Shown here in pieces: positions 40,326-52,004 of a stretch of 64,000 nt of DNA (positions within the stretch are counted from its first letter, which is position 1; each line of letters starts with the position of its first letter). Origin of the DNA: Candidatus Iainarchaeum sp. (GTDB lineage: Archaea; Iainarchaeota; Iainarchaeia; Iainarchaeales; DTGL01); the NCBI GenBank assembly GCA_026396995.1, contig JAPLVS010000054.1, forward strand, positions 24,052 through 88,051, read 5' to 3'. A program made the translations under genes and the position numbers. The notes under the pieces were generated by a model. The model ran no database searches. It was given only the letters and a program-made list of their open reading frames with translations, and was not told where the DNA came from.

Positions 40326-41942
40326 ATGTTTGACCTGTTAAAGGAAAAAATTGCAGCTTTTGCAAGTAAGCTCGGCAAAAAAGCAGAGGAAAAACCGGCA
40401 AAGCCTGCCCAGGAAACCCGGGAGGGCGGCAGGCGCGAGATAACTGATTATTACGAAAGGTCTCCGGCGCGCGCAGTCGAGGAAATGGTGCTTCCCGGCG
40501 CCAAGGAAAAAAAGGCCGGGGCAATAGCCGAACCGAAAAAAGCCCAGCCGGTTGGGATAGTTCCTGCCGGAGAAAAGCCCCGGGCTTTGGAAAAGCCTGA
40601 AAAAATGGGGGCGCTTTCAGAAAGCATTTCAAAGGTAAAAGAAAAGCTGGCCAGGGCAGAAGCCGTGGAAAAAGCCGCGCCAGAAAAACCGGCTGAAAAA
40701 AAGCCGGAAGAAGCCAAGGCCAAAAAGCCTGCGGAAAAGCCAAAGGAAGTTCTCCCGGAAAAACCCAAGCCGCCTGAAAAGCCGCCGGAAGAAGAATTCA
40801 GGCTTTCGAAAATCAGCGGCTTGTGGAAGGATGTTTTCAAGGCGCCTCCGAAAACCGTGCCGCCTGAAGAAAAATCCGGAATTCCAGCAGGGAAACCGGT
40901 TCAGCAGGAACTTCCGGAAATGCAGCCTGTTGCCAGGGAGCAAAGGGAATTTGAAAAGCCGCCAATTGTTTTTGAAAAGGAACCTGAAATAAAACCGCCT
41001 TTCAGGGGGCCTGCAAGCGCGCCAAAATTGCCTGAAACCGACAAAAGGGAACTGAAGGCGAAAGTCGGGGCAATCAAGACATTGAAGGGCGTTTTGCAGG
41101 GCTATGTGCAGTTGGGCGAAAAAGAAATCAACAGCATGCTTTTCGAGCTCGAAATGTCATTGCTTGAAGCGGATGTGAACCAGGAAACAGCGAGCGCCCT
41201 TGTCCAAAAAATAAAGGAACTGCTTGTGAATGAAAGGATTCCGCGCGGGAACGAGGTCAGCGGCTTCCTCAAGGGCAAAATCAAGGAAGCACTCACTGAG
41301 CTCACGGCCACAGAAAGAGTCAATCTGTTCGAATTGATTGAAAGGTCGAGAAAGCCTTTCAAAATCCTTTTCCTCGGCCCTAACGGCGCAGGCAAAACCA
41401 CAACCATCGCAAAGCTTTCCTTTGCACTGCAATTGACAGGCAAGACAGTCATTTGGGCTGCAGCCGACACCTTCCGCGCTGCTTCAATCGAACAGCTTGA
41501 AGAGCACGCGAAAAAACTGAAGATAAGGGTTGTAAAGCACAAATATGGTGCTGACCCTGCTGCAGTTGCATTTGATGCAGTGAAAGCGGCTGAAGCGAAC
41601 CACGTTGATGTTGTAATGGTTGATTCTGCAGGCAGGCAGGAAACAAACAAGAATTTGATAGAGGAACTGAAGAAAATCGAGCGCGTCCTGAAGCCTGATT
41701 TCAAGATTTTTATCGGTGAAGCGTTCGCAGGCAAGGGCTTATTGGAGCAGGCGAAGGCTTTCGATGAAGCGCTCGGAATCGACGGCTTCATCCTCACAAA
41801 AATCGACACAGACGCAAAAGGCGGCACAGTCCTTTCCCTATTATGCGAATTGAAAAAGCCGGTTCTCTTCATCGGCACAGGCCAGTCCTACGAAGACTTG
41901 GTTCCGTTCACGCCGCAGTACATTATCGACAGGATTGTTTGA
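40326..41942 (+). CDS. ftsY: SRP receptor FtsY with ~280-aa K/E/P-rich N-terminal extension
   Basis: NG domain with ILFLGPNGAGKTTTIAKL, DTFRAA, DSAGR and TKIDTDAKGG. PEKP-type repeats in the N-terminus. Confidence 0.9.
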   Translation: MFDLLKEKIAAFASKLGKKAEEKPAKPAQETREGGRREITDYYERSPARAVEEMVLPGAKEKKAGAIAEPKKAQPVGIVPAGEKPRALEKPEKMGALSESISKVKEKLARAEAVEKAAPEKPAEKKPEEAKAKKPAEKPKEVLPEKPKPPEKPPEEEFRLSKISGLWKDVFKAPPKTVPPEEKSGIPAGKPVQQELPEMQPVAREQREFEKPPIVFEKEPEIKPPFRGPASAPKLPETDKRELKAKVGAIKTLKGVLQGYVQLGEKEINSMLFELEMSLLEADVNQETASALVQKIKELLVNERIPRGNEVSGFLKGKIKEALTELTATERVNLFELIERSRKPFKILFLGPNGAGKTTTIAKLSFALQLTGKTVIWAAADTFRAASIEQLEEHAKKLKIRVVKHKYGADPAAVAFDAVKAAEANHVDVVMVDSAGRQETNKNLIEELKKIERVLKPDFKIFIGEAFAGKGLLEQAKAFDEALGIDGFILTKIDTDAKGGTVLSLLCELKKPVLFIGTGQSYEDLVPFTPQYIIDRIV

Positions 41943-41987
41943 GTATGGGCGCTAGCTTCGCCCAGCAATATTGGCAGGATTGTGTAA

Positions 41988-42719
41988 TCAATCGCTTCTT
42001 TTTCGCCTGAACAAGCGCTTACGTTTTTTTCCGACAAGTTCTTCTACTACAAGCTTTTGCACTTGCCTTGAAACCTCTTCTCTCGGAAGCGTCGTGTCGA
42101 TTTCAAAAACACGCACGCCTTTTGCCCTGAGTTCGGCAAGCCTTTTTTCGTTTGCCTTCTCCATTCTTTCCAGGTTTTCAAGTTTTTCGTGCTTGAAAAC
42201 AACTCCGCCCCACTCGTCCACGACATTCCTTTCCGCAATCCTTTTCACTGAGACCTCTGGCGGTACCCTAAGGTGTATTACGGCGTCAGGCAAAGGGCCG
42301 GCTACAGCCCTGGCAGTGCTTTTTGTAACAAACCTCGGGATTTTTCCAGCGTATACTGCGGTAATTGCCGTCGCGTCGGTCACCGGATCCCTTTGGAAAA
42401 GGCGCACATCGCTTTTCCTTGTGGCAACCCTTGCAGCGCGGAATGCGGACCCTGCAATCGCACTGCCGGCCAGGATTTTTCTGTCGGAGCCTTTTTCGGC
42501 GCCTCTTTTTATGAGGCGCTTGCCATAGCCTCCAACCCTTCCGGCAACCCCCTTGAACCCGACAAAGTGCGGGGCGTCAATTATTGCAACATTAAGGCCC
42601 TTTTCCCTGAGTGCCTGCTGCAGCTTCCCGGCAACTGTTGTCTTGCCGCAGCCGTCGATTCCGACAATGGCGATATCTGTCGGGCGCTTTCTTTTAAAAG
42701 GGCGTTTCAAAGGCGGCAT
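41988..42719 (-). CDS. Thymidylate-kinase-like P-loop NMP kinase paralog (short form)
   Basis: N-terminus MPPLKRPFKRKRPTDIAIVGIDGCGKTT has a Tmk-type P-loop. A DRY-like QRDPVTDATAI...AVYAG follows. It is the last gene of a four-gene minus-strand operon. Confidence 0.45.
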   Translation of the reverse strand: MPPLKRPFKRKRPTDIAIVGIDGCGKTTVAGKLQQALREKGLNVAIIDAPHFVGFKGVAGRVGGYGKRLIKRGAEKGSDRKILAGSAIAGSAFRAARVATRKSDVRLFQRDPVTDATAITAVYAGKIPRFVTKSTARAVAGPLPDAVIHLRVPPEVSVKRIAERNVVDEWGGVVFKHEKLENLERMEKANEKRLAELRAKGVRVFEIDTTLPREEVSRQVQKLVVEELVGKKRKRLFRRKRSD

Positions 42720-44032
42720 TATTTTTTCCTTCTTCCCAATTTTGCCTTCACTTTTTTCTCAATTGAAATTTTCCATTCAAGGTAGCGCTTGGCCCCCCTG
42801 GTTATTGTTTCGACCTTCGAGGACACATTGTATTTGCCGTAAAGCCTTCCGAGTTTCTTGTATGCGAAATGGTCTGCCAGAATGCCCATCATTTCCGGTT
42901 CCCTTACAATCGAGGAAACAATATAAGCGGTTCTCCCAGCAAAGGGAATTGCTCCGATGAGCATCGCTTCCCCGCTGTGCAATCTCTTGATTTTTTCATA
43001 TTCTTCCGCAGAAATATTTCCGGCCAAGCGCCTTGCCATCCCAATTCCCCTCATAGCGGCCGTATAGGCCGGCCTTCCCACGGTTCCGACGCCGGCCATT
43101 ATTACCGGCACCCCGCTTATTGCCAGATGCACTCCGAAGTGCGTCAAAAAATCCGAAAAATAGCCTTTCCCTATTTTTTCCCTCAATTCCGCAGCTTTCT
43201 CCTGACCAATTCTTCCTTCTTTTTCCCAGCGCCAGATTCCATCAACCATAAATTGCATGGCCTGCTCTTTCTTTCGCTCCAGATATTTTTTCCTGCCTTT
43301 TTCCATTAGCCTTTTTTCTTTCAATATCCTTTGCACCTGCCCTAAAACTGCCTCCTTTGGAAGAGATGCATCTATTTCCAGAATCCACACGCCTTTTGAC
43401 GCAAGCTCCGCCTTGCGTTTCTGATAAGCAGAATTCAATCCCTCAAGATTTTCAGGCTTTTCATGCTGGAATTCAATTGCGTGCAAGCCACTGCCACCAG
43501 CTCTTTTTTTTGCAAGCCGTTCGGCAGCAGTTGCAGGCTCTACCGAAAGAAATACTGCAACATCCGGCAAAGGCCCCCCTGCAATCCGCCCGGCTGCCTT
43601 GGAAAACGCCAGGATTATCCTTCCGCCGTACTGCCTTGCCAAGACAGGCGCTTCAATTGCCGGATGCCTTTCAATAATCCTGACAGTGCTTTTTCTCGAT
43701 TTGGCCCTTGCCATCCTTGTCGGAAGCGAGGCAATCGCTCCGCCAGCTGCAGCAAGCCTCTTTGATTGTTTTTCCGCTCCTTTTGCACTAATACTCCTTC
43801 CAAACCCACTCACTCTTCCAATCATTCCGCCATAATCCTGGAAATGCGGAACATCCAGGACCGCGGTTTTGGTGCCCTGCGCATTCAACCGGCTTTGCAA
43901 TCCCCTTGCAAGTGTTGTTTTCCCCGCGCCATCAATCCCCACAATCGCAATATCAGTGGGCCTTTTCCGCCTGAACAATCTTTTTGGGGGCATAAATATG
44001 ATGCTGTTTGTTGAGTTTAAATTACTTTTCAA
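42719..44032 (-). CDS. Thymidylate-kinase-like P-loop kinase paralog fused to a ~200-aa C-terminal domain of unknown function
   Basis: The N-terminal 230 aa are paralogous to 41988-42719 (PPKRLFRRKRPTDIAIVGIDGAGKTT, ERHPAIEAPVLARQYGG). The C-terminal domain is uncharacterised and moderately hydrophobic. TAATG overlap with the downstream gene. Confidence 0.45.
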   Translation of the reverse strand: MKSNLNSTNSIIFMPPKRLFRRKRPTDIAIVGIDGAGKTTLARGLQSRLNAQGTKTAVLDVPHFQDYGGMIGRVSGFGRSISAKGAEKQSKRLAAAGGAIASLPTRMARAKSRKSTVRIIERHPAIEAPVLARQYGGRIILAFSKAAGRIAGGPLPDVAVFLSVEPATAAERLAKKRAGGSGLHAIEFQHEKPENLEGLNSAYQKRKAELASKGVWILEIDASLPKEAVLGQVQRILKEKRLMEKGRKKYLERKKEQAMQFMVDGIWRWEKEGRIGQEKAAELREKIGKGYFSDFLTHFGVHLAISGVPVIMAGVGTVGRPAYTAAMRGIGMARRLAGNISAEEYEKIKRLHSGEAMLIGAIPFAGRTAYIVSSIVREPEMMGILADHFAYKKLGRLYGKYNVSSKVETITRGAKRYLEWKISIEKKVKAKLGRRKK

Positions 44033-44071
44033 ATCGCAATGGCCAAGCCGGCCAAAAGGCTTTCCGGTTGC

Positions 44072-44860
44072 TTATTGCTTTACCACCGGCACAAGCCTTC
44101 CAGACCTTTTCACAAGCTTGCCGTCAGGCGTGAACACAAACATTTTCGCCTTTCCAGTGCGAGGGTCGATGGCTTCGATTTTGCAGTATTTTTCCAGGTC
44201 ATCTGTCGGAACGAACCTGCCCTGCTTTGTAACATTTTCAGATTGCCCCTGCCTTTCATACCCGATGCTTTTGAAAATGCCCTCAAATTTGCCTGGTTTA
44301 AACGAATGTTCACTATAAAACTCTATTTTTCTTCCGGGATTGCCGAAGGAAGGGCGGTTTCCTGCTCTCTTTGCAGGATTTTGGGAACGCACATGCCTTT
44401 CAGCGCGGGAAGCAAATTTTTTGCCGAGCCCAAGCCCCCGCATGCGTTCCGGGATGCGCATGTGCGCCAGGTCTTCTCTGGCAAAGAAAAAAGGGGCGCC
44501 TTTGTCAGGTATGACATCAGTTCCGATTCCCTTTTTCAGCTGGCACTCCAATAACGAGATAATGGACCCGCCCCTGGCAATGATAATTTTCCCGTCCGAA
44601 AGCAGATGTGCACCTCGGAGATTGCCAAAAATAGTTTTCAATGGCACCATGATTTCCTGCTCTGGCCCAATCCAGAATGCGGCATATCTGTTATTGCTTT
44701 TTTGCAGGTCTATCTCCAGCGGCCACACAAGCGGCTTCTTTCCTGCCGCCCCTCTTGCAGTGTCCCTTCTCTGCCTTTTGGCTTCGAGTTTTTCCCTTTG
44801 ATTTGGATATTTATATTTTCTTTCCGCTTTCGGGATTCTGCGCCTTGATTTTTGTGGCAT
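44072..44860 (-). CDS. Hypothetical protein with GNAT-like motif-A segment; paralog of 44870-45693
   Basis: Basic N-terminus. GKKPLVWPL, IIIARGG, and AHMRIPERMRGLGLGKKFASRAERHV, which resembles acyl-CoA-binding motif A. C-terminal IEAIDPRTGKAKMFVF. Confidence 0.4.
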   Translation of the reverse strand: MPQKSRRRIPKAERKYKYPNQREKLEAKRQRRDTARGAAGKKPLVWPLEIDLQKSNNRYAAFWIGPEQEIMVPLKTIFGNLRGAHLLSDGKIIIARGGSIISLLECQLKKGIGTDVIPDKGAPFFFAREDLAHMRIPERMRGLGLGKKFASRAERHVRSQNPAKRAGNRPSFGNPGRKIEFYSEHSFKPGKFEGIFKSIGYERQGQSENVTKQGRFVPTDDLEKYCKIEAIDPRTGKAKMFVFTPDGKLVKRSGRLVPVVKQ

Positions 44861-44869
44861 TTTTTCATC

Positions 44870-45693
44870 TCACTTGACCGGAAAAACGTATTCCTTCACT
44901 TTGCCTGTCCGCGGGTCGATTGCTTCAATTATATGGAAGCGGGACATATTTGATGTCGCTTTTACCCTACCTTCTTTGTGGTATTTCCTCAACACAAACT
45001 CATCTTCTTCTGGGCTTTCTTGCCAGTACCTAATTTTTGTAAAAAGCCGGTCAAAAAGGTCCCGGCGGTTTTCGCCCATCCAAATCGTATTTTTTCCGTC
45101 CTTTTCTCCCTTACATCCCTGTCGGCCCTTGAAGCAAACCTTTCGGCCAGTCCAGTGCCTCTCAGTTTTTTTGGCAAATACATGTGCGCGATATCTGCAG
45201 TGGGCTCTATTGCAAAAAAAGCCATTGCCCAGTGCTTGTCAGTAATCGGTTGCTCACCACCGTTTTTCCATTCATACAGTTTTATCGCTACAAATGGCGA
45301 ATAGTTTGGCACGGTCCTCGCAACAATGATTCTGCCTCCAGGTCCGCGGTAAACCCCCTGCAATAATCTGCCATGTTCCGCCAGCGGAACCGGCACCTCG
45401 TTTTTTCCGTCGAGCAGAACCACTTCCTTCCTTTTGGTTTTTTCCCCAGTTGGCCCCGCGATTTCCCGTTCCACCACGCCTTGTTCCAACATGGTCAAAG
45501 GCTGGACTAATGGTTTTTTGCCGGCTTTTCCCAGTGCTTCCCTGGCAGGAATACCCTCAGCAATCAGTTTTCTTGCCCTTCTTTTTCTTTCTTCCCGCCT
45601 GGCCAAATTCCTTGCGAACCTTTTCCTGGCAAACTTGTCAGGCTCAGGCTTGCCGGCAGTCAGGTATTTTTGAGGAATTTTCCGTGAAGACAT
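44870..45693 (-). pseudogene. Paralog of 44072-44860, interrupted by a frameshift (234-aa N-part 44989-45693 plus 69-aa C-part 44870-45079)
   Basis: Shares GKKPLVQPL, RIIVART, AHMYLPKKLRGTGLAERFASRADRDV with its neighbour. The paralog's C-terminal motif IEAIDPRTGKVKEYVF lies in the separate overlapping 69-aa ORF. Confidence 0.4.
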
Positions 45694-45733
45694 AAATCAA
45701 TTAGTGCCGGACCAGAATAAATTCCTATCCTGT

Positions 45734-47335
45734 TCAGGCTGCAATTACACCCGCAAACATCAGCAGCGCTATTGCCACGCCTATAAGGCCTTCTCCTGCA
45801 ATCACTCCGGCTGCAAGCAGCCTGCCGTTTTCCGTCAATTTCTTTTTGTCAGCGTACAGCCTTATCATGCCGCCCACAAACAATGGGAAGGCAAGGGTGA
45901 TTGGCGCATAAAGGCCTATGCCGAATGCAACCATCACAATGCCGATTTTGAAAAAATAAGTGAGCAAAACAGTTGCAATGAATCCGATTGCAATTCCTGC
46001 AACCATCGGCATTTCAATGGATTGTGCGGAAATTATTCCCTTGAAAGCGAATGCCTGCGGCGCAGGGAACATTGCTGTGCCGATTCTTGGCTGCAATGCA
46101 ATCAGCACAAAGCCCAATACCATTGCCCCGGCTACAACGCCCAGCAATTGGCTTGCGGTCTGGCTTCCAGGATCAGCCTTAAGGATGTGCCCTGCTTTTA
46201 AGTCCTGCATAAAATCCCCGCCCATTCCTGCGGCAATGCAGACGATTGCTGACAAAATCACAAGCGGGAGCGCCTGGAACCCCAGGAACAATTTTGCTAT
46301 TAGGAGCACGATTATCGCGAACACTTCCATCGGGTCCACATTCATTTCGCCTGTAGCCCTTGCCCCCACATAAGCCATAAAGAAAGCGCCCACGATTGCC
46401 ACAACCGAAAGCACAGGGTCAAGGTTTGCTGCGATGGTTACAAGTGCCACAACCAGCACAATGCCGAAAACCCAGATTTTACTCAACTGCGTCTTTTCCT
46501 CTTTCAATCCTTCAAGCATTTTTTTCAGCGAAGGCAATCCTTTAAGCAGGAAATACGCCACCGCAGCGCCGATTATAACGCCGATGCCAAGCGGGCTTGT
46601 GATTGCAGCCATTGCTGTTCCCTTGTCTGCGAATGCTCCGCTCGAAACCAACCAGGGCACAATTGCAAAGTTGCTTATCAGTGCGCCGAAAAACCACACC
46701 CCGGTGAAAAGCGGCCCTATCAGGAAGCCGCCTGCAAACGTTACAAGCGTTACCCCGAATCCCAGCGAAAAATATTTCGAAATGTCAAGCTTTAAAGTGT
46801 CAAGGCTTATAAGGCCCGGAATCGCCTTGAAATAATCCCTTGCTATTGCCAGGGCAGCGCCGATTCCGAAAGCAATCCCCAATTTTTTCGCTTTTTCGCC
46901 GCCTTCATCGCCTGCTTCCACAAGCGCTGCGGCCGCAGCGCCGTCCGCAAAAGGCAATTGTTCCCTTTCAATCATTTCCTTGCGCAAAGGGATAGTGAAT
47001 AGCACCCCGAGCAGTCCGCCTGCAAGCGCTATCAGGATGATTTCAGTTGCGCTTATCTGCATTCCGAGAAGGTAAAGTGCAGGAATCGTGAAAATTATTC
47101 CTGCCGCAAGGAGGCCGCCTGTGCTTGCGGCAGTCTGCGCTACGATTATTTCCTGCTTGGATGTTTTGCCGAACAGTTTCAGGAGCGCCATTGACATCAG
47201 CGATGTTGTCACTATCGGCCAGTACACTCCGCCTATCATCAGGCCAAGGTATGCGGAGTACATTGCCACCGCAACCGAGAGCACAAATCCGACAAGCATT
47301 GCCTTTGGCGTCAGTTCTTTCACATTCATCATAGC
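45734..47335 (-). CDS. OPT-family oligopeptide transporter (multi-TM)
   Basis: About 535 aa with 14-16 predicted TM helices. GG-rich helices and overall topology typical of the OPT superfamily. Confidence 0.55.
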   Translation of the reverse strand, partial: AMMNVKELTPKAMLVGFVLSVAVAMYSAYLGLMIGGVYWPIVTTSLMSMALLKLFGKTSKQEIIVAQTAASTGGLLAAGIIFTIPALYLLGMQISATEIILIALAGGLLGVLFTIPLRKEMIEREQLPFADGAAAAALVEAGDEGGEKAKKLGIAFGIGAALAIARDYFKAIPGLISLDTLKLDISKYFSLGFGVTLVTFAGGFLIGPLFTGVWFFGALISNFAIVPWLVSSGAFADKGTAMAAITSPLGIGVIIGAAVAYFLLKGLPSLKKMLEGLKEEKTQLSKIWVFGIVLVVALVTIAANLDPVLSVVAIVGAFFMAYVGARATGEMNVDPMEVFAIIVLLIAKLFLGFQALPLVILSAIVCIAAGMGGDFMQDLKAGHILKADPGSQTASQLLGVVAGAMVLGFVLIALQPRIGTAMFPAPQAFAFKGIISAQSIEMPMVAGIAIGFIATVLLTYFFKIGIVMVAFGIGLYAPITLAFPLFVGGMIRLYADKKKLTENGRLLAAGVIAGEGLIGVAIALLMFAGVIAA

Positions 47336-47427
47336 CCCCCTGAAAAGAAACACTAATTGAAGAATAAAAGTTTAAATATTGATTTGCAAGGCAAAGGGTT
47401 TTATTCTTTGCAATCGTATAATTAGTT

Positions 47428-48038: not shown

Positions 48039-48538
48039 ACTTTGCCCAAGCGTCAATTTCCGTAAATTTAATTTGCCGGCAAAGCTTCCCAAGGGCAAAG
48101 TATTTTTTATTGTTTGCAAGCATATAATCGGTTATGCCTCGGTTTGCCCGCGGGATTGTACGATCTGTTGCTGGTAGAATTTCCCAACGCAGGGAAACCA
48201 GGCGAGCGGCCAGGAGGAAAACCCTTGGCAGGGAACTTGGCATTGTCGGCCTGGACATCGGGCACCTTAATAGGACGGCTTCATTGCACGGCAGCATTGC
48301 CAGAATGCGGCGCCGGAAAGGCGAACCTAACCTCCAGTCCCTGGGAATGGAAGCCAGGGCGCGCAGAGCGGCAGTGCCTCTGGAAAAAAGATCCAGAAGG
48401 CTTAGGGCCCAGCTCGCCGGCCTTGGGGCAAAACCTTAGCAATCCTTCAACTTCCAAGCCCCACAACTGCCCGCAACCTGCTTGAAGCCCAATCTCCTTA
48501 TCGCAAGGTAATAAAACCTTTCAATGCTTATTTTTTGC

Positions 48539-49897
48539 ATGGCCTTGGGTGAAAAGTTAAGGGCGGCAATGGAGCGCCTGAAGAATGCCGCTTTTCTCGA
48601 TAAGGATGCGATAGCGGAAGCCGTCAAGGAAATCCAGCGCGCGCTCATTTCTTCGGATGTTGAAGTAAACCTTGTGTTCAATCTGAGCAGGGAGATAGAG
48701 AAAAAGGCATCCGAGGTTCCGCCAAAAGGCATTGACCGCAGGGAATTCATCATCAAGACCACTTACGATTTGCTCGCAGACTTAATCGGCGGCCAGCATG
48801 AAGCGCCGAAAGAACCGAAAAAAATCCTTTTGCTCGGCCTATTTGGGCAGGGCAAAACCACGACTGCCGGAAAACTGGCGGCATGGCATAAAAAGCGCGG
48901 AAGGCATGTTTCCCTAGTGTGCGCGGACGTGCACAGGCCTGCTTCTTTCGAGCAATTGCAGCAGGTTGCAGGGCAGGCTGGCGTTGAGTTTTACGGCATC
49001 AAGGCCGAAAAGAGCGCTGTTAAAATCGTGCAGAGCGCATTGCAGGAACTGAAGAAGCAGGATTTGGTTATTGTCGATTCTGCAGGCCGCTCAGGCCTGG
49101 ACGAAGCGCTCATAAAAGAAATAATAGATGTCAAGGCAGCATTCAACCCTGACCAAATCTGGCTTGTTTTGAGTGCGGACATAGGCCAATTGGCGAAGAG
49201 GCAGGCACAGGCTTTCCATGAAGCCGTCGGCGTTAATGGAATCATTCTTTCGAAAGCCGACAGCTCTTCCAAGGGCGGAGGCGCTCTCGCTGCCTGCGCT
49301 GAAACAAGGGCGCCTGTGTATTTTATCGGGACAGGTGAAAAGCTTTCAGACCTTGAAATATTCGATGCAAAGCGCTATCTTGGAAGGATAATGGGCTACG
49401 GCGACCTTGAAGCGCTTCTGGAAAAAGCGAAAGAGGCGGCAGAGGAAAAGGATTTCAAGCCAGAAGACATCCTGTCCGGAGATTTTAACCTCGATGTTTT
49501 CTACAAGCAATTAGAAGCCACAAAGAAAATGGGCCCGATTTCAAAGGTTGCCGAAATGATGGGCCTGAAAATGCAGTTGCCCAAAGAACAGCTTGAATTG
49601 GGCCAGGAAAAACTCGATTCTTACAAAATAATAATGGATTCCATGACCAAACAGGAAAAAAAGCACCCGGACATAATTAGCAGGGAGCGCATTGAAAGGA
49701 TTGCAAAGGGCAGCGGCCGCAGGCCAGAGGATGTCAGGGACTTGCTGAAGCAGTACAGGCAGCTTGAGAAAATGCTCGGCAAATTCAAGAAAATTGCAGG
49801 AAAAAAAGACCCAGAGAAAATGGACGAAAAGGACATCCAGAAAATGATGCAGAAATTCGGCGGCATGAGGAAAAAAAAGCGCCTGAAATTCAGGTAA
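48539..49897 (+). CDS. srp54: Signal recognition particle protein SRP54
   Basis: N domain, G domain (LLGLFGQGKTTTAGKLA, DVHRPAS, DSAGR, SKADSSSKGG), and a Met-rich M domain (MMGLKMQL...MMQKFGGM). Confidence 0.9.
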   Translation: MALGEKLRAAMERLKNAAFLDKDAIAEAVKEIQRALISSDVEVNLVFNLSREIEKKASEVPPKGIDRREFIIKTTYDLLADLIGGQHEAPKEPKKILLLGLFGQGKTTTAGKLAAWHKKRGRHVSLVCADVHRPASFEQLQQVAGQAGVEFYGIKAEKSAVKIVQSALQELKKQDLVIVDSAGRSGLDEALIKEIIDVKAAFNPDQIWLVLSADIGQLAKRQAQAFHEAVGVNGIILSKADSSSKGGGALAACAETRAPVYFIGTGEKLSDLEIFDAKRYLGRIMGYGDLEALLEKAKEAAEEKDFKPEDILSGDFNLDVFYKQLEATKKMGPISKVAEMMGLKMQLPKEQLELGQEKLDSYKIIMDSMTKQEKKHPDIISRERIERIAKGSGRRPEDVRDLLKQYRQLEKMLGKFKKIAGKKDPEKMDEKDIQKMMQKFGGMRKKKRLKFR

Positions 49898-51539: not shown

Positions 51540-52004
51540 TCACAGAATTTTCCTGAGGTATTCCATGCCAGATTTTTTGAACCCGATTTTTTGGTAAAAT
51601 TTGAATGCCTTTGATTTGCGGTGCGAGAGCAATGTCAGCGCCTTGAACCCCTTTTTCTTCAGATCCTTTTCCAGCAATGCTAGCGCCTTTCGGCCTATGC
51701 CTTTTCCCTGCAGGCCTTCGGCCACAGCGAATTCTTCCACGAAAAACCCGTTTCCTTCGGGCTCGGAGTAGAATTCCGAGCCAAAGATTATCCCTGTCCT
51801 TTTCCCGCCCATTTCTATTACATAAATCGCGCTTTTCGGGTGCCTTGCCCACAAGCGCACCGCCCGCATCGCTTTTGCAGGAGTCCATTTTTCATTATAG
51901 GGCGCCTTAGAGAACTCTTTCCTGAGCAGTTCAGCGCAAAAGCCCAAATCGCTTTCCTTTGCCGGCCGAAGGCCGACCTTGGATTGCTTAAAATCAGCTT
52001 TCAT
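51540..52004 (-). CDS. GNAT-family N-acetyltransferase
   Basis: Motif A LQGKGIGRKALALLE. 154 aa. Confidence 0.8.
   Translation of the reverse strand: MKADFKQSKVGLRPAKESDLGFCAELLRKEFSKAPYNEKWTPAKAMRAVRLWARHPKSAIYVIEMGGKRTGIIFGSEFYSEPEGNGFFVEEFAVAEGLQGKGIGRKALALLEKDLKKKGFKALTLLSHRKSKAFKFYQKIGFKKSGMEYLRKIL

What the first reader, a model, noticed from the sequence alone, without database searches (positions are those of the whole stretch)
44072..45693. Tandem paralogs of an unknown family with GNAT-like motif, second copy frameshifted
Genes 44072-44860 and 44870-45693 share GKKPLV(W/Q)PL, an (I/R)II(A/V)AR strand, and AHM(R/Y)(I/L)P..(M/L)RG(L/T)GL(G/A)..FASRA(E/D)R.V. The last is reminiscent of GNAT acyl-CoA-binding motif A (R/Q-x-x-G-x-G/A). 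Both also share the C-terminal IEAIDPRTGK(A/V)K..VF and long K/R-rich N-termini. In the second copy the C-terminal motif is in a separate overlapping 69-aa ORF, so the gene is frameshifted around 44989-45079 (decaying duplicate or sequencing error). Together with the Tmk-like pair downstream this forms a minus-strand operon of four lineage-specific genes.
Basis: partly seen in the sequence, partly recalled or inferred. Interest (0 to 1): 0.6.

Follow-up and report, generated by a model that had tools for sequence, protein, structure and literature searches.

The report
Paired divergent GNAT genes, one frameshifted
Two neighbouring genes in a DPANN (Diapherotrites/Iainarchaeota) archaeon belong to a small, very basic, previously unmodelled branch of the common GNAT acyltransferase superfamily, and one copy is broken by a single-base deletion; this is a modest addition to a known superfamily, not a new kind of system.

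Summary
Genes A (44072-44860, minus strand) and B (44870-45693, minus strand) are paralogs (BLASTP E 5e-16). B's C-terminal module lies in the -1 frame (E 2e-10).

- **Frameshift.** Intact one-ORF orthologs place a 1-nt deletion at about 45091-45107, slightly upstream of the range quoted. An independent Logan assembly reproduces it exactly.
- **Family size.** About 109 clusters among 1.84 billion representatives, almost all in Iainarchaeota-type MAGs. No Pfam or NCBIfam model covers it.

Two parts of the interpretation fail. B, not A, is the ancestral copy: it holds the conserved OPT→gene←FtsY position. The "four-gene operon" is not conserved either. The closest relative has B+A but no Tmk-like genes, and another relative has a Tmk-like gene alone in the same slot.

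The acceptor substrate is unknown. The strong positive charge (pI about 10.5) hints at a target bound to nucleic acid or the ribosome. Interest is low to moderate.

The parts
44072..44860 (-). Gene A (NCBI NT067_04905, P0001), 262 aa. Intact, divergent GNAT-fold protein with pI 10.4. Predicted layout: basic N-terminal helix at residues 21-38, a beta-meander at 59-126, and the GNAT core from about residue 130 to 243.
44423..44440 (-). Gene A P-loop RGLGLG (residues 141-146). It fits the GNAT pyrophosphate-binding consensus Q/R-x-x-G-x-G/A.
   Evidence: consensus as given in PMC4964394
44453..44467 (-). Gene A AHMRI strand (beta4) holding His133. This His is present in 77 of 79 aligned family members and is the candidate general base.
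44150..44179 (-). Gene A family signature IEAIDPRTGK (residues 228-237), in the C-terminal beta-hairpin.
45098..45693 (-). Gene B, N-terminal part in frame B (NT067_04910, P0003). The annotated ORF runs on as about 35 off-frame residues to the stop at 44989. This part holds GKKPLVQPL, IIVAR, AHMYL, the P-loop RGTGLA (45145-45162) and FASRADRDV.
45091..45107 (-). Frameshift site. One base is missing relative to intact orthologs, in GAGAAAAGGACGGAAAAAAT. Reading must move to the -1 frame to continue as GKNTIW...
   Evidence: (BLASTN gap at AGG-ACGG against intact L006); reproduced 100% in Logan contig L001
44870..45097 (-). Gene B, C-terminal part in frame B' (GKNTIWMGENRRDLFDRLF...IEAIDPRTGKVKEYVFPVK*). 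It holds GNAT beta5-alpha4-beta6-beta7 and the family signature at 44900-44929.
   Evidence: (pN/pS below 0.4 against the L006 ortholog)
42719..44032 (-). Tmk-like kinase gene with a C-terminal tail carrying two hydrophobic segments. 437 aa from the TTG start, or 424 aa from the ATG at 43993 as in NCBI. It is context, not part of the GNAT pair, and is a lineage-specific insertion.
41988..42719 (-). Second Tmk-like gene (243 aa), 46% identical to the kinase part of the first.
45734..47353 (-). OPT-family transporter gene. It is the conserved upstream neighbour of the B-type gene in the syntenic clade.
40326..41942 (+). FtsY gene, the conserved convergent boundary of the variable slot.

Best explanation
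A and B are two members of a small, very basic, divergent family of GNAT-fold proteins found almost only in Iainarchaeota/Diapherotrites-type DPANN archaea.

B is the ancestral copy. It holds the conserved position between the OPT transporter gene and the convergent FtsY gene. In this genome a 1-nt deletion in an A-rich stretch (about 45091-45107) splits it, separating the CoA-binding half from beta5-alpha4-beta6-beta7. As written in the DNA it cannot give a complete GNAT domain.

A is a second, more divergent copy. It is shared with one close relative, is intact, and is under purifying selection. It is probably the functional copy here.

Inferred mechanism, not shown: acyl-CoA binds in the beta4/beta5 cleft, with its pyrophosphate held by the RGxGL(G/A) loop. 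The near-invariant His in beta4, possibly helped by the conserved Glu and Asp of IEAIDP, deprotonates an acceptor amine for direct acyl transfer. The strongly positive surface (net +27 to +29) docks the enzyme on a polyanion such as RNA, DNA or the ribosome, so the acceptor is most likely a protein or nucleic-acid-linked amine there.

The Tmk-like pair downstream is a separate, later insertion into the same variable slot. It is not a conserved partner.
For: **Paralogy and frameshift.**. Full-length one-ORF orthologs P0004-P0008 cover the repaired B end to end. The close relative L006 has an intact B C-terminus.

**Not an assembler artefact.** Logan contig L001 is 100% identical across the site.

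**B is ancestral.** The SRP54-OPT-B-FtsY order recurs in L002, L003, L005, L009 and L010. B groups with that clade in the NJ tree, while A+P0002 form a separate branch.

**A is under selection.** dN/dS is 0.28 against its L006 ortholog.

**GNAT fold.**
- Models: pLDDT 79.7 and 90.5.
- PDB profile search: the best nine hits are GNATs, E 0.003-0.07, all over motifs A and B.
- Pfam: 5-12 of 76 members individually hit each of five GNAT models.
- hhalign against the window's own canonical GNAT: E 2.3e-5, probability 76%.

**Conserved residues.** The P-loop consensus is present in A and B and in 40 of 79 members. His133 is present in 77 of 79.

**Basicity.** pI 10.4-10.5 against a window median of 9.1.

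**Tmk pair is separate.**
Against: - No biochemical evidence exists for CoA binding, activity or acceptor.
- The canonical alpha1-alpha2 helices are absent from the models.
- Half of the family departs from the strict P-loop consensus, mostly K in place of R/Q.
- The window's proteome is basic overall, so charge is weak evidence for a nucleic-acid-associated target.
- Gene context gives no functional partner outside one syntenic clade.
- The frameshift could still be a base-calling error if the MAG and the Logan contig come from the same reads.
Confidence: 0.7

Rival explanations
1. The frameshift in B is a sequencing or consensus error in an A-rich stretch. In the cell B is an intact protein of about 274 aa, and the archaeon carries two working copies.
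For: There is a single lesion and no other stops. Both halves keep the family motifs, and pN/pS is below 0.4 in the post-shift part.

Other database members show frame breaks at homopolymers:
- L010/P0013 at an A9 run.
- P0064, which equals L014 copy 1 read in the +1 frame after a T11A6 run. The L014 MAG itself is intact there.
Against: An independent Logan assembly of SRR20698647 gives exactly the same sequence. The runs at the site are only A4 and A6, which are not typical error sites for short-read data. The read technology is unknown to me.
Confidence: 0.3
2. Homopolymer tracts in these lysine-rich genes act as slippage-prone on/off switches (phase variation). The OPT-FtsY slot is a fast-evolving accessory island.
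For: - At least four family members are frame-broken at A/T runs.
- An intact and a broken version of the same gene both exist.
- The slot content varies between relatives: B; B+A; B+A+Tmk+Tmk; Tmk alone.
- Synonymous divergence of B from L006 (pS 0.87) is far above that of flanking A and FtsY (0.37 each), which suggests allele replacement.
Against: A-runs are expected by chance in K-rich genes. The window's site has only short runs. No population data are available. Error and slippage cannot be told apart from assemblies. The pS estimate rests on only 44 synonymous sites.
Confidence: 0.1
3. B is expressed through programmed -1 ribosomal frameshifting.
For: A -1 shift is what is needed. An A6 run lies at the junction, so tRNA-Lys could slip on A-AAA-A.
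Against: - There is no X-XXY-YYZ heptamer in the zero frame.
- The conserved Gly of G-K-N lies in frame B' upstream of the A6 run.
- The downstream fold is weak: z -1.78, 11 of 200 shuffles fold as well, and it starts 17 nt away.
- All orthologs, including the closest (L006), are single ORFs.
Confidence: 0.03
4. The family is a non-catalytic, nucleic-acid-binding protein that merely keeps a GNAT-like scaffold.
For: Charge is extreme: net +27 to +49. The canonical alpha1-alpha2 helices are missing. The strict P-loop is kept in only 40 of 79 members. No GNAT Pfam model passes its threshold.
Against: A glycine-rich loop is kept in nearly all members. The near-invariant residues (His133 77/79, Glu229 70/79, Asp232 66/79, Arg96 73/79) fit a conserved active site better than a simple scaffold.
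Confidence: 0.2

Closest known systems
GNAT (GCN5-related N-acetyltransferase) superfamily in general
   Different: No Pfam or NCBIfam model covers it. The canonical alpha1-alpha2 helices are absent from the models, which instead show a long basic N-terminal helix and a beta-meander. It has a family-specific IEAIDPxTGK C-terminal hairpin, a very high pI, and a distribution limited to DPANN-type archaea.
NatD/Naa40 (histone H4/H2A N-terminal acetyltransferase; PDB 4ua3, 4u9w)
Small Acetyltransf_CG / YjdJ-type GNATs (PF14542; PDB 5i0c)
   Same: This is the only Pfam GNAT model hit by A and B themselves, over motif A (E 0.035 and 0.0024). YjdJ is the second-best PDB profile hit.
   Different: Scores are below threshold (14.7 and 18.4 bits against 30). 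Those proteins are about 90 aa and lack the N- and C-terminal modules.
Thymidylate kinase family (for the downstream pair only)
   Same: Pfam PF02223 scores above its cut-off (44.7 and 46.5 bits against 27). A P-loop is present.
   Different: Both are far below the NCBIfam dTMP-kinase equivalog cut-off (about 40 against 83 bits). They have pI 10.5-10.8, and one carries a hydrophobic C-terminal tail. Only one homolog was found elsewhere.

Membership tests
GNAT superfamily | GNAT core fold (beta4-alpha3-beta5-alpha4-beta6-beta7, mixed sheet) | tested here: met
GNAT superfamily | P-loop Gln/Arg-x-x-Gly-x-Gly/Ala before alpha3 (PMC4964394) | tested here: met
   A has RGLGLG at 141-146 and B has RGTGLA at 178-183. 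The strict consensus holds in 40 of 79 family members; most of the rest have K-G-x-G-L-G.
GNAT superfamily | N-terminal arm beta1-alpha1-alpha2-beta2-beta3 | tested here: inconclusive
   The models show no alpha1/alpha2 between the strands. Instead there is one long N-terminal helix followed by six or seven strands. This region is known to vary among GNATs. No coordinates were available to inspect the packing.
GNAT superfamily | Sequence-profile membership (a Pfam GNAT-clan model above its gathering score) | tested here: not met
   A scores 14.7 bits and B 18.4 bits against a cut-off of 30 for PF14542. Weak hits to five GNAT models occur in 5-12 of 76 members each. hhalign against a canonical GNAT gives E 2.3e-5, probability 76%.
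GNAT superfamily | Binds acyl-CoA and transfers the acyl group | not testable with these tools
   Needs biochemistry.
NatD/Naa40-type N-terminal acetyltransferase | Specific structural or sequence similarity beyond the generic GNAT core | tested here: inconclusive
GNAT toxin of toxin-antitoxin pairs (TacT/AtaT) | Adjacent small antitoxin gene and a compact two-gene module | tested here: not met
Anti-phage defence or viral protein families | Match to PADLOC, PHROGs or BFVD | tested here: not met
   No hits for A or P0004 in PADLOC or PHROGs. The best BFVD match has E 0.06.
Programmed -1 ribosomal frameshift site | Zero-frame slippery heptamer, a downstream stimulatory structure, and conservation of the two-frame arrangement in orthologs | tested here: not met
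   There is no X-XXY-YYZ in frame B. The downstream fold has z -1.78. Orthologs are single ORFs.
dTMP kinase (Tmk) for genes 41988-42719 and 42719-44032 | Pfam PF02223 above cut-off; NCBIfam equivalog TIGR00041 above cut-off | tested here: inconclusive
   PF02223 is met (44.7 and 46.5 bits against 27). TIGR00041 is not met (40.5 and 38.2 against 83.25). They are Tmk-fold kinases but not Tmk orthologs.

The most novel reading that the evidence does not exclude
The family is a DPANN-specific acyltransferase that works on a nucleic-acid- or ribosome-bound target. It sits in a fast-turnover accessory slot between OPT and FtsY, together with equally basic membrane-tailed Tmk-like kinases. Homopolymer tracts in the genes switch copies on and off, making this a contingency locus linked to the host-dependent lifestyle.
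Probability: 0.07. Interest if true: 0.6.

Novelty: new member of a known kind. Interest (0 to 1): 0.3.

Why it matters
It defines a compact, lineage-restricted GNAT family that current domain libraries miss: about 109 clusters at 50% identity, 225-265 aa. Its features are clear: a basic N-terminal helix, LQGVY, a near-invariant His in beta4, RGxGLG, and IEAIDPxTGK. That improves annotation of DPANN genomes, where most lineage-specific genes are still hypothetical, and it gives a testable candidate for a protein- or nucleic-acid-directed acyltransferase.

It also shows that the OPT-FtsY interval is a variable slot in these genomes. And it shows that lysine-rich genes in these MAGs are repeatedly frame-broken at homopolymers, which is a practical warning for annotation.

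It does not open a new class of system.

Tried and rejected
- **Conserved operon with the Tmk-like pair.** Rejected. Tmk-like genes are absent from all other family loci and from the closest relative. A Tmk-like gene occurs alone in the slot in L022.
- **Conserved functional neighbour across the family.** None found. Shared neighbours exist only inside one syntenic clade.
- **Viral, mobile or defence origin.** No PADLOC, PHROGs or BFVD hits and no GC anomaly.
- **Programmed frameshift.** No heptamer, a weak downstream fold, and single-ORF orthologs.
- **A as a recent duplicate of B.** Rejected. The two are 33-35% identical and sit on separate branches. The tree is only a rough NJ tree.
- **Exact-match search of JGI metagenomes** for a 22-mer next to the frameshift, to find a strain with an intact B: no match.
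- **Technical failures.** Foldseek against afdb50 was unavailable. The search for related loci with the 76-sequence alignment failed for lack of a conserved stretch, so a 15-sequence alignment was used instead. One dN/dS block used a wrong frame and was redone.
- **Literature search** for Diapherotrites plus GNAT found nothing specific.

Full report
**Source and setting.** The window is a contig of a Candidatus Diapherotrites (Iainarchaeota, DPANN) MAG. Gene A is NCBI NT067_04905 and gene B is NT067_04910. The local gene order on the minus strand is:
- OPT transporter (45734-47353)
- B (44870-45693)
- A (44072-44860)
- a Tmk-like gene with a hydrophobic tail (42719-44032)
- a second Tmk-like gene (41988-42719)

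This array converges on FtsY (40326-41942, plus strand). SRP54 lies at 48524-49897.

**Observation.** All stated ORFs and motifs are present. A and B align at 35% identity over 150 residues, E 5e-16. The C-terminal 58 residues of A align to the 69-aa ORF 44870-45079, E 2e-10. That ORF is in the -1 frame relative to B.

Joining B's two frames gives a protein that full-length single-ORF homologs cover end to end: P0004-P0008, 241-259 aa, 38-49% identity. B itself, which was not used to build the profile, scores E 3.5e-38 against the family profile.

**Where the frameshift is.** Frame B' is open from 45238. Orthologs have a conserved G-K-N-(A/T)-F after the alpha3 helix. In the window...FASRADRDVREK is in frame B and GKNTIW is in frame B'. 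BLASTN against the intact ortholog in the close relative L006 places a 1-nt gap at AGG-ACGG. The lesion is therefore a 1-nt deletion at about 45091-45107, in GAGAAAAGGACGGAAAAAAT.

A Logan assembly of run SRR20698647 is 100% identical over 3930 bp including this site. That rules out an assembler artefact. It does not rule out a read-level error if the reads are the same.

The post-shift part has pN/pS below 0.4 against L006. It was therefore under selection for most of its history, and the lesion is either recent or not real.

Programmed frameshifting is unlikely:
- There is no zero-frame slippery heptamer.
- The downstream fold is weak, z -1.78.
- All orthologs are single ORFs.

**What the family is.** A word-index search found almost nothing for A: itself and P0002 at 76% identity, which JGI names 'GNAT superfamily N-acetyltransferase'. 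An exhaustive profile search of 1.84 billion representatives found 109 clusters at E up to 1e-3, and 60 at E up to 1e-30. Nearly all are 225-265 aa.

In species-representative genomes the family turns up in 13 loci:
- most are 'Candidatus Iainarchaeum' or unclassified archaeal MAGs
- two are labelled Altiarchaeota
- one is a 4.5-kb contig in a Chloroflexi bin, probably mis-binned

No Pfam or NCBIfam model reaches threshold.

The GNAT reading is nevertheless well supported:
- Both paralogs hit PF14542 weakly over motif A.
- 5-12 of 76 members individually hit each of five GNAT models.
- The best nine PDB sequence-profile hits are GNATs, aligned over motifs A and B.
- hhalign of the family profile against the window's own canonical GNAT (51540-52004) gives E 2.3e-5 over 92 columns.

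A carries RGLGLG and B carries RGTGLA. Both fit the GNAT P-loop consensus Gln/Arg-x-x-Gly-x-Gly/Ala.

**Family-specific features.**
- A K/R-rich N-terminal helix.
- The motifs GKKPLxxPL and LQGVY.
- Arg96, present in 73 of 79 members.
- His133 in beta4, present in 77 of 79.
- The signature HRIEAIDPKTGK in the C-terminal hairpin.
- No canonical alpha1-alpha2 helices in the models.
- Very basic proteins: A net +29 and B +27, pI about 10.5, against a window median pI of 9.1.

**Most likely mechanism (inferred).** The family is an acyl-CoA-dependent N-acyltransferase. CoA sits in the beta4/beta5 cleft. The near-invariant His, perhaps together with the Glu and Asp of IEAIDP, acts as general base. 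A His at the beta-bulge position is catalytically important in the GNAT Rv1347c.

The acceptor is unknown. The charge suggests a target on RNA, DNA or the ribosome. I put about 0.85 on the GNAT fold, about 0.55 on catalytic competence, and I have no firm view on the substrate.

**Evolutionary reading.** In L002, L003, L009, L005 and L010 a single B-type gene lies between OPT and the convergent FtsY-prefoldin-L18A-eIF6 block. B is therefore the ancestral, syntenic copy.

The closest relative (L006) shows FtsY at 91% nt identity with pS 0.37, and A at 81% nt identity with pS 0.37. Its order is: intact B, a 9-nt spacer, A, then FtsY directly. It has no Tmk-like genes.

A and P0002 form a long separate branch rather than a sister group to B (a rough NJ tree).

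B's synonymous divergence from L006 (pS 0.55-0.90) is much higher than that of its flanks. This suggests allele replacement in this slot, though the estimate rests on few sites.

A second, independent tandem pair occurs in L014, with both copies intact and one canonical and one divergent.

**The Tmk-like pair.**
- The two genes are 46% identical, E 2e-63.
- They pass the Pfam Thymidylate_kin cut-off but not the dTMP-kinase equivalog cut-off.
- They are as basic as the GNATs.
- They have just one homolog elsewhere, P0120. P0120 sits alone in the same OPT→X←FtsY slot of another relative.
- A TATA-like element precedes the first Tmk-like gene.
- None of the other family loci contains a Tmk-like gene.

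The 'four-gene operon' is therefore a lineage-specific juxtaposition in a variable slot.

**Other frame-broken members.**
- The L010 ortholog (P0013) is broken at an A9 run.
- P0064 equals L014 copy 1 read in the +1 frame after a T11A6 run, while the L014 MAG itself is intact.
- P0060 shows the same off-frame tail.

Lysine-rich genes full of A-runs are thus repeatedly frame-broken in assemblies. Error and real slippage cannot be separated here.

**Verdict.** The 'decaying duplicate' reading is reversed: the ancestral copy is the broken one. The operon claim is not supported. This is a new family within a very large known superfamily, with unknown substrate. Interest is about 0.3.

Noticed in passing
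window 41943-45733, compared with L002, L005, L006, L010, L022: The interval between OPT and the convergent FtsY is a variable slot in otherwise syntenic Iainarchaeota genomes. Its content across relatives is: one GNAT-like gene; two GNAT-like genes; two GNAT-like plus two Tmk-like genes (this window); or a single Tmk-like gene.
   Followed up: partly
L010:2263-2271: The B-type ortholog in Candidatus Iainarchaeum Meg22_1618_Bin_64 is also frame-broken, at an A9 run inside the conserved E-K-K-G-K motif. Its IEAIDPKTGK module continues in another frame.
   Followed up: partly
L014:5995-7493: An independent tandem pair of family genes with a 4-nt overlap, both intact. Database protein P0064 is copy 1 read in the +1 frame after a T11A6 homopolymer, so intact and frame-broken versions of the same gene both exist in public data.
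   Followed up: partly
P0019 (no locus; from the representative library): A 7011-aa predicted protein holds one full unit of this family at residues 5995-6221, plus other GNAT-like and wHTH-like units. The units are joined by a recurring N-x-F-[SG]-[SA] junction motif. It is either a real polyprotein or a run-on gene call.
   Followed up: no
window 44873-45186 vs L006:1-309: Synonymous divergence of B from its L006 counterpart (pS 0.55-0.90) is much higher than for the adjacent A and FtsY (about 0.37). This hints at recombinational replacement of the B allele. Few sites are involved (20-44 synonymous sites).
   Followed up: partly
window 42719-44032 (-): The longer Tmk-like protein has a C-terminal extension of about 190 aa with two hydrophobic segments (residues about 295-320 and 356-376). 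Its pI is 10.5, unusual for a nucleotide kinase. The likely true start is the ATG at 43993, preceded by a TAATTTAAAC TATA-like element.
   Followed up: partly
window 51540-52004 (-): A canonical GNAT (Pfam Acetyltransf_1, E 4e-13) sits next to NUDIX and a Peptidase_A24 prepilin peptidase. The same gene set recurs next to SRP54 in relatives L005 and L022, where an Rpr2-domain gene lies between NUDIX and Peptidase_A24.
   Followed up: no
window 40326-41100 (+): FtsY has a low-complexity N-terminal extension of about 240 aa, rich in K, E, P and A, ahead of its SRP54_N and GTPase domains.
   Followed up: no
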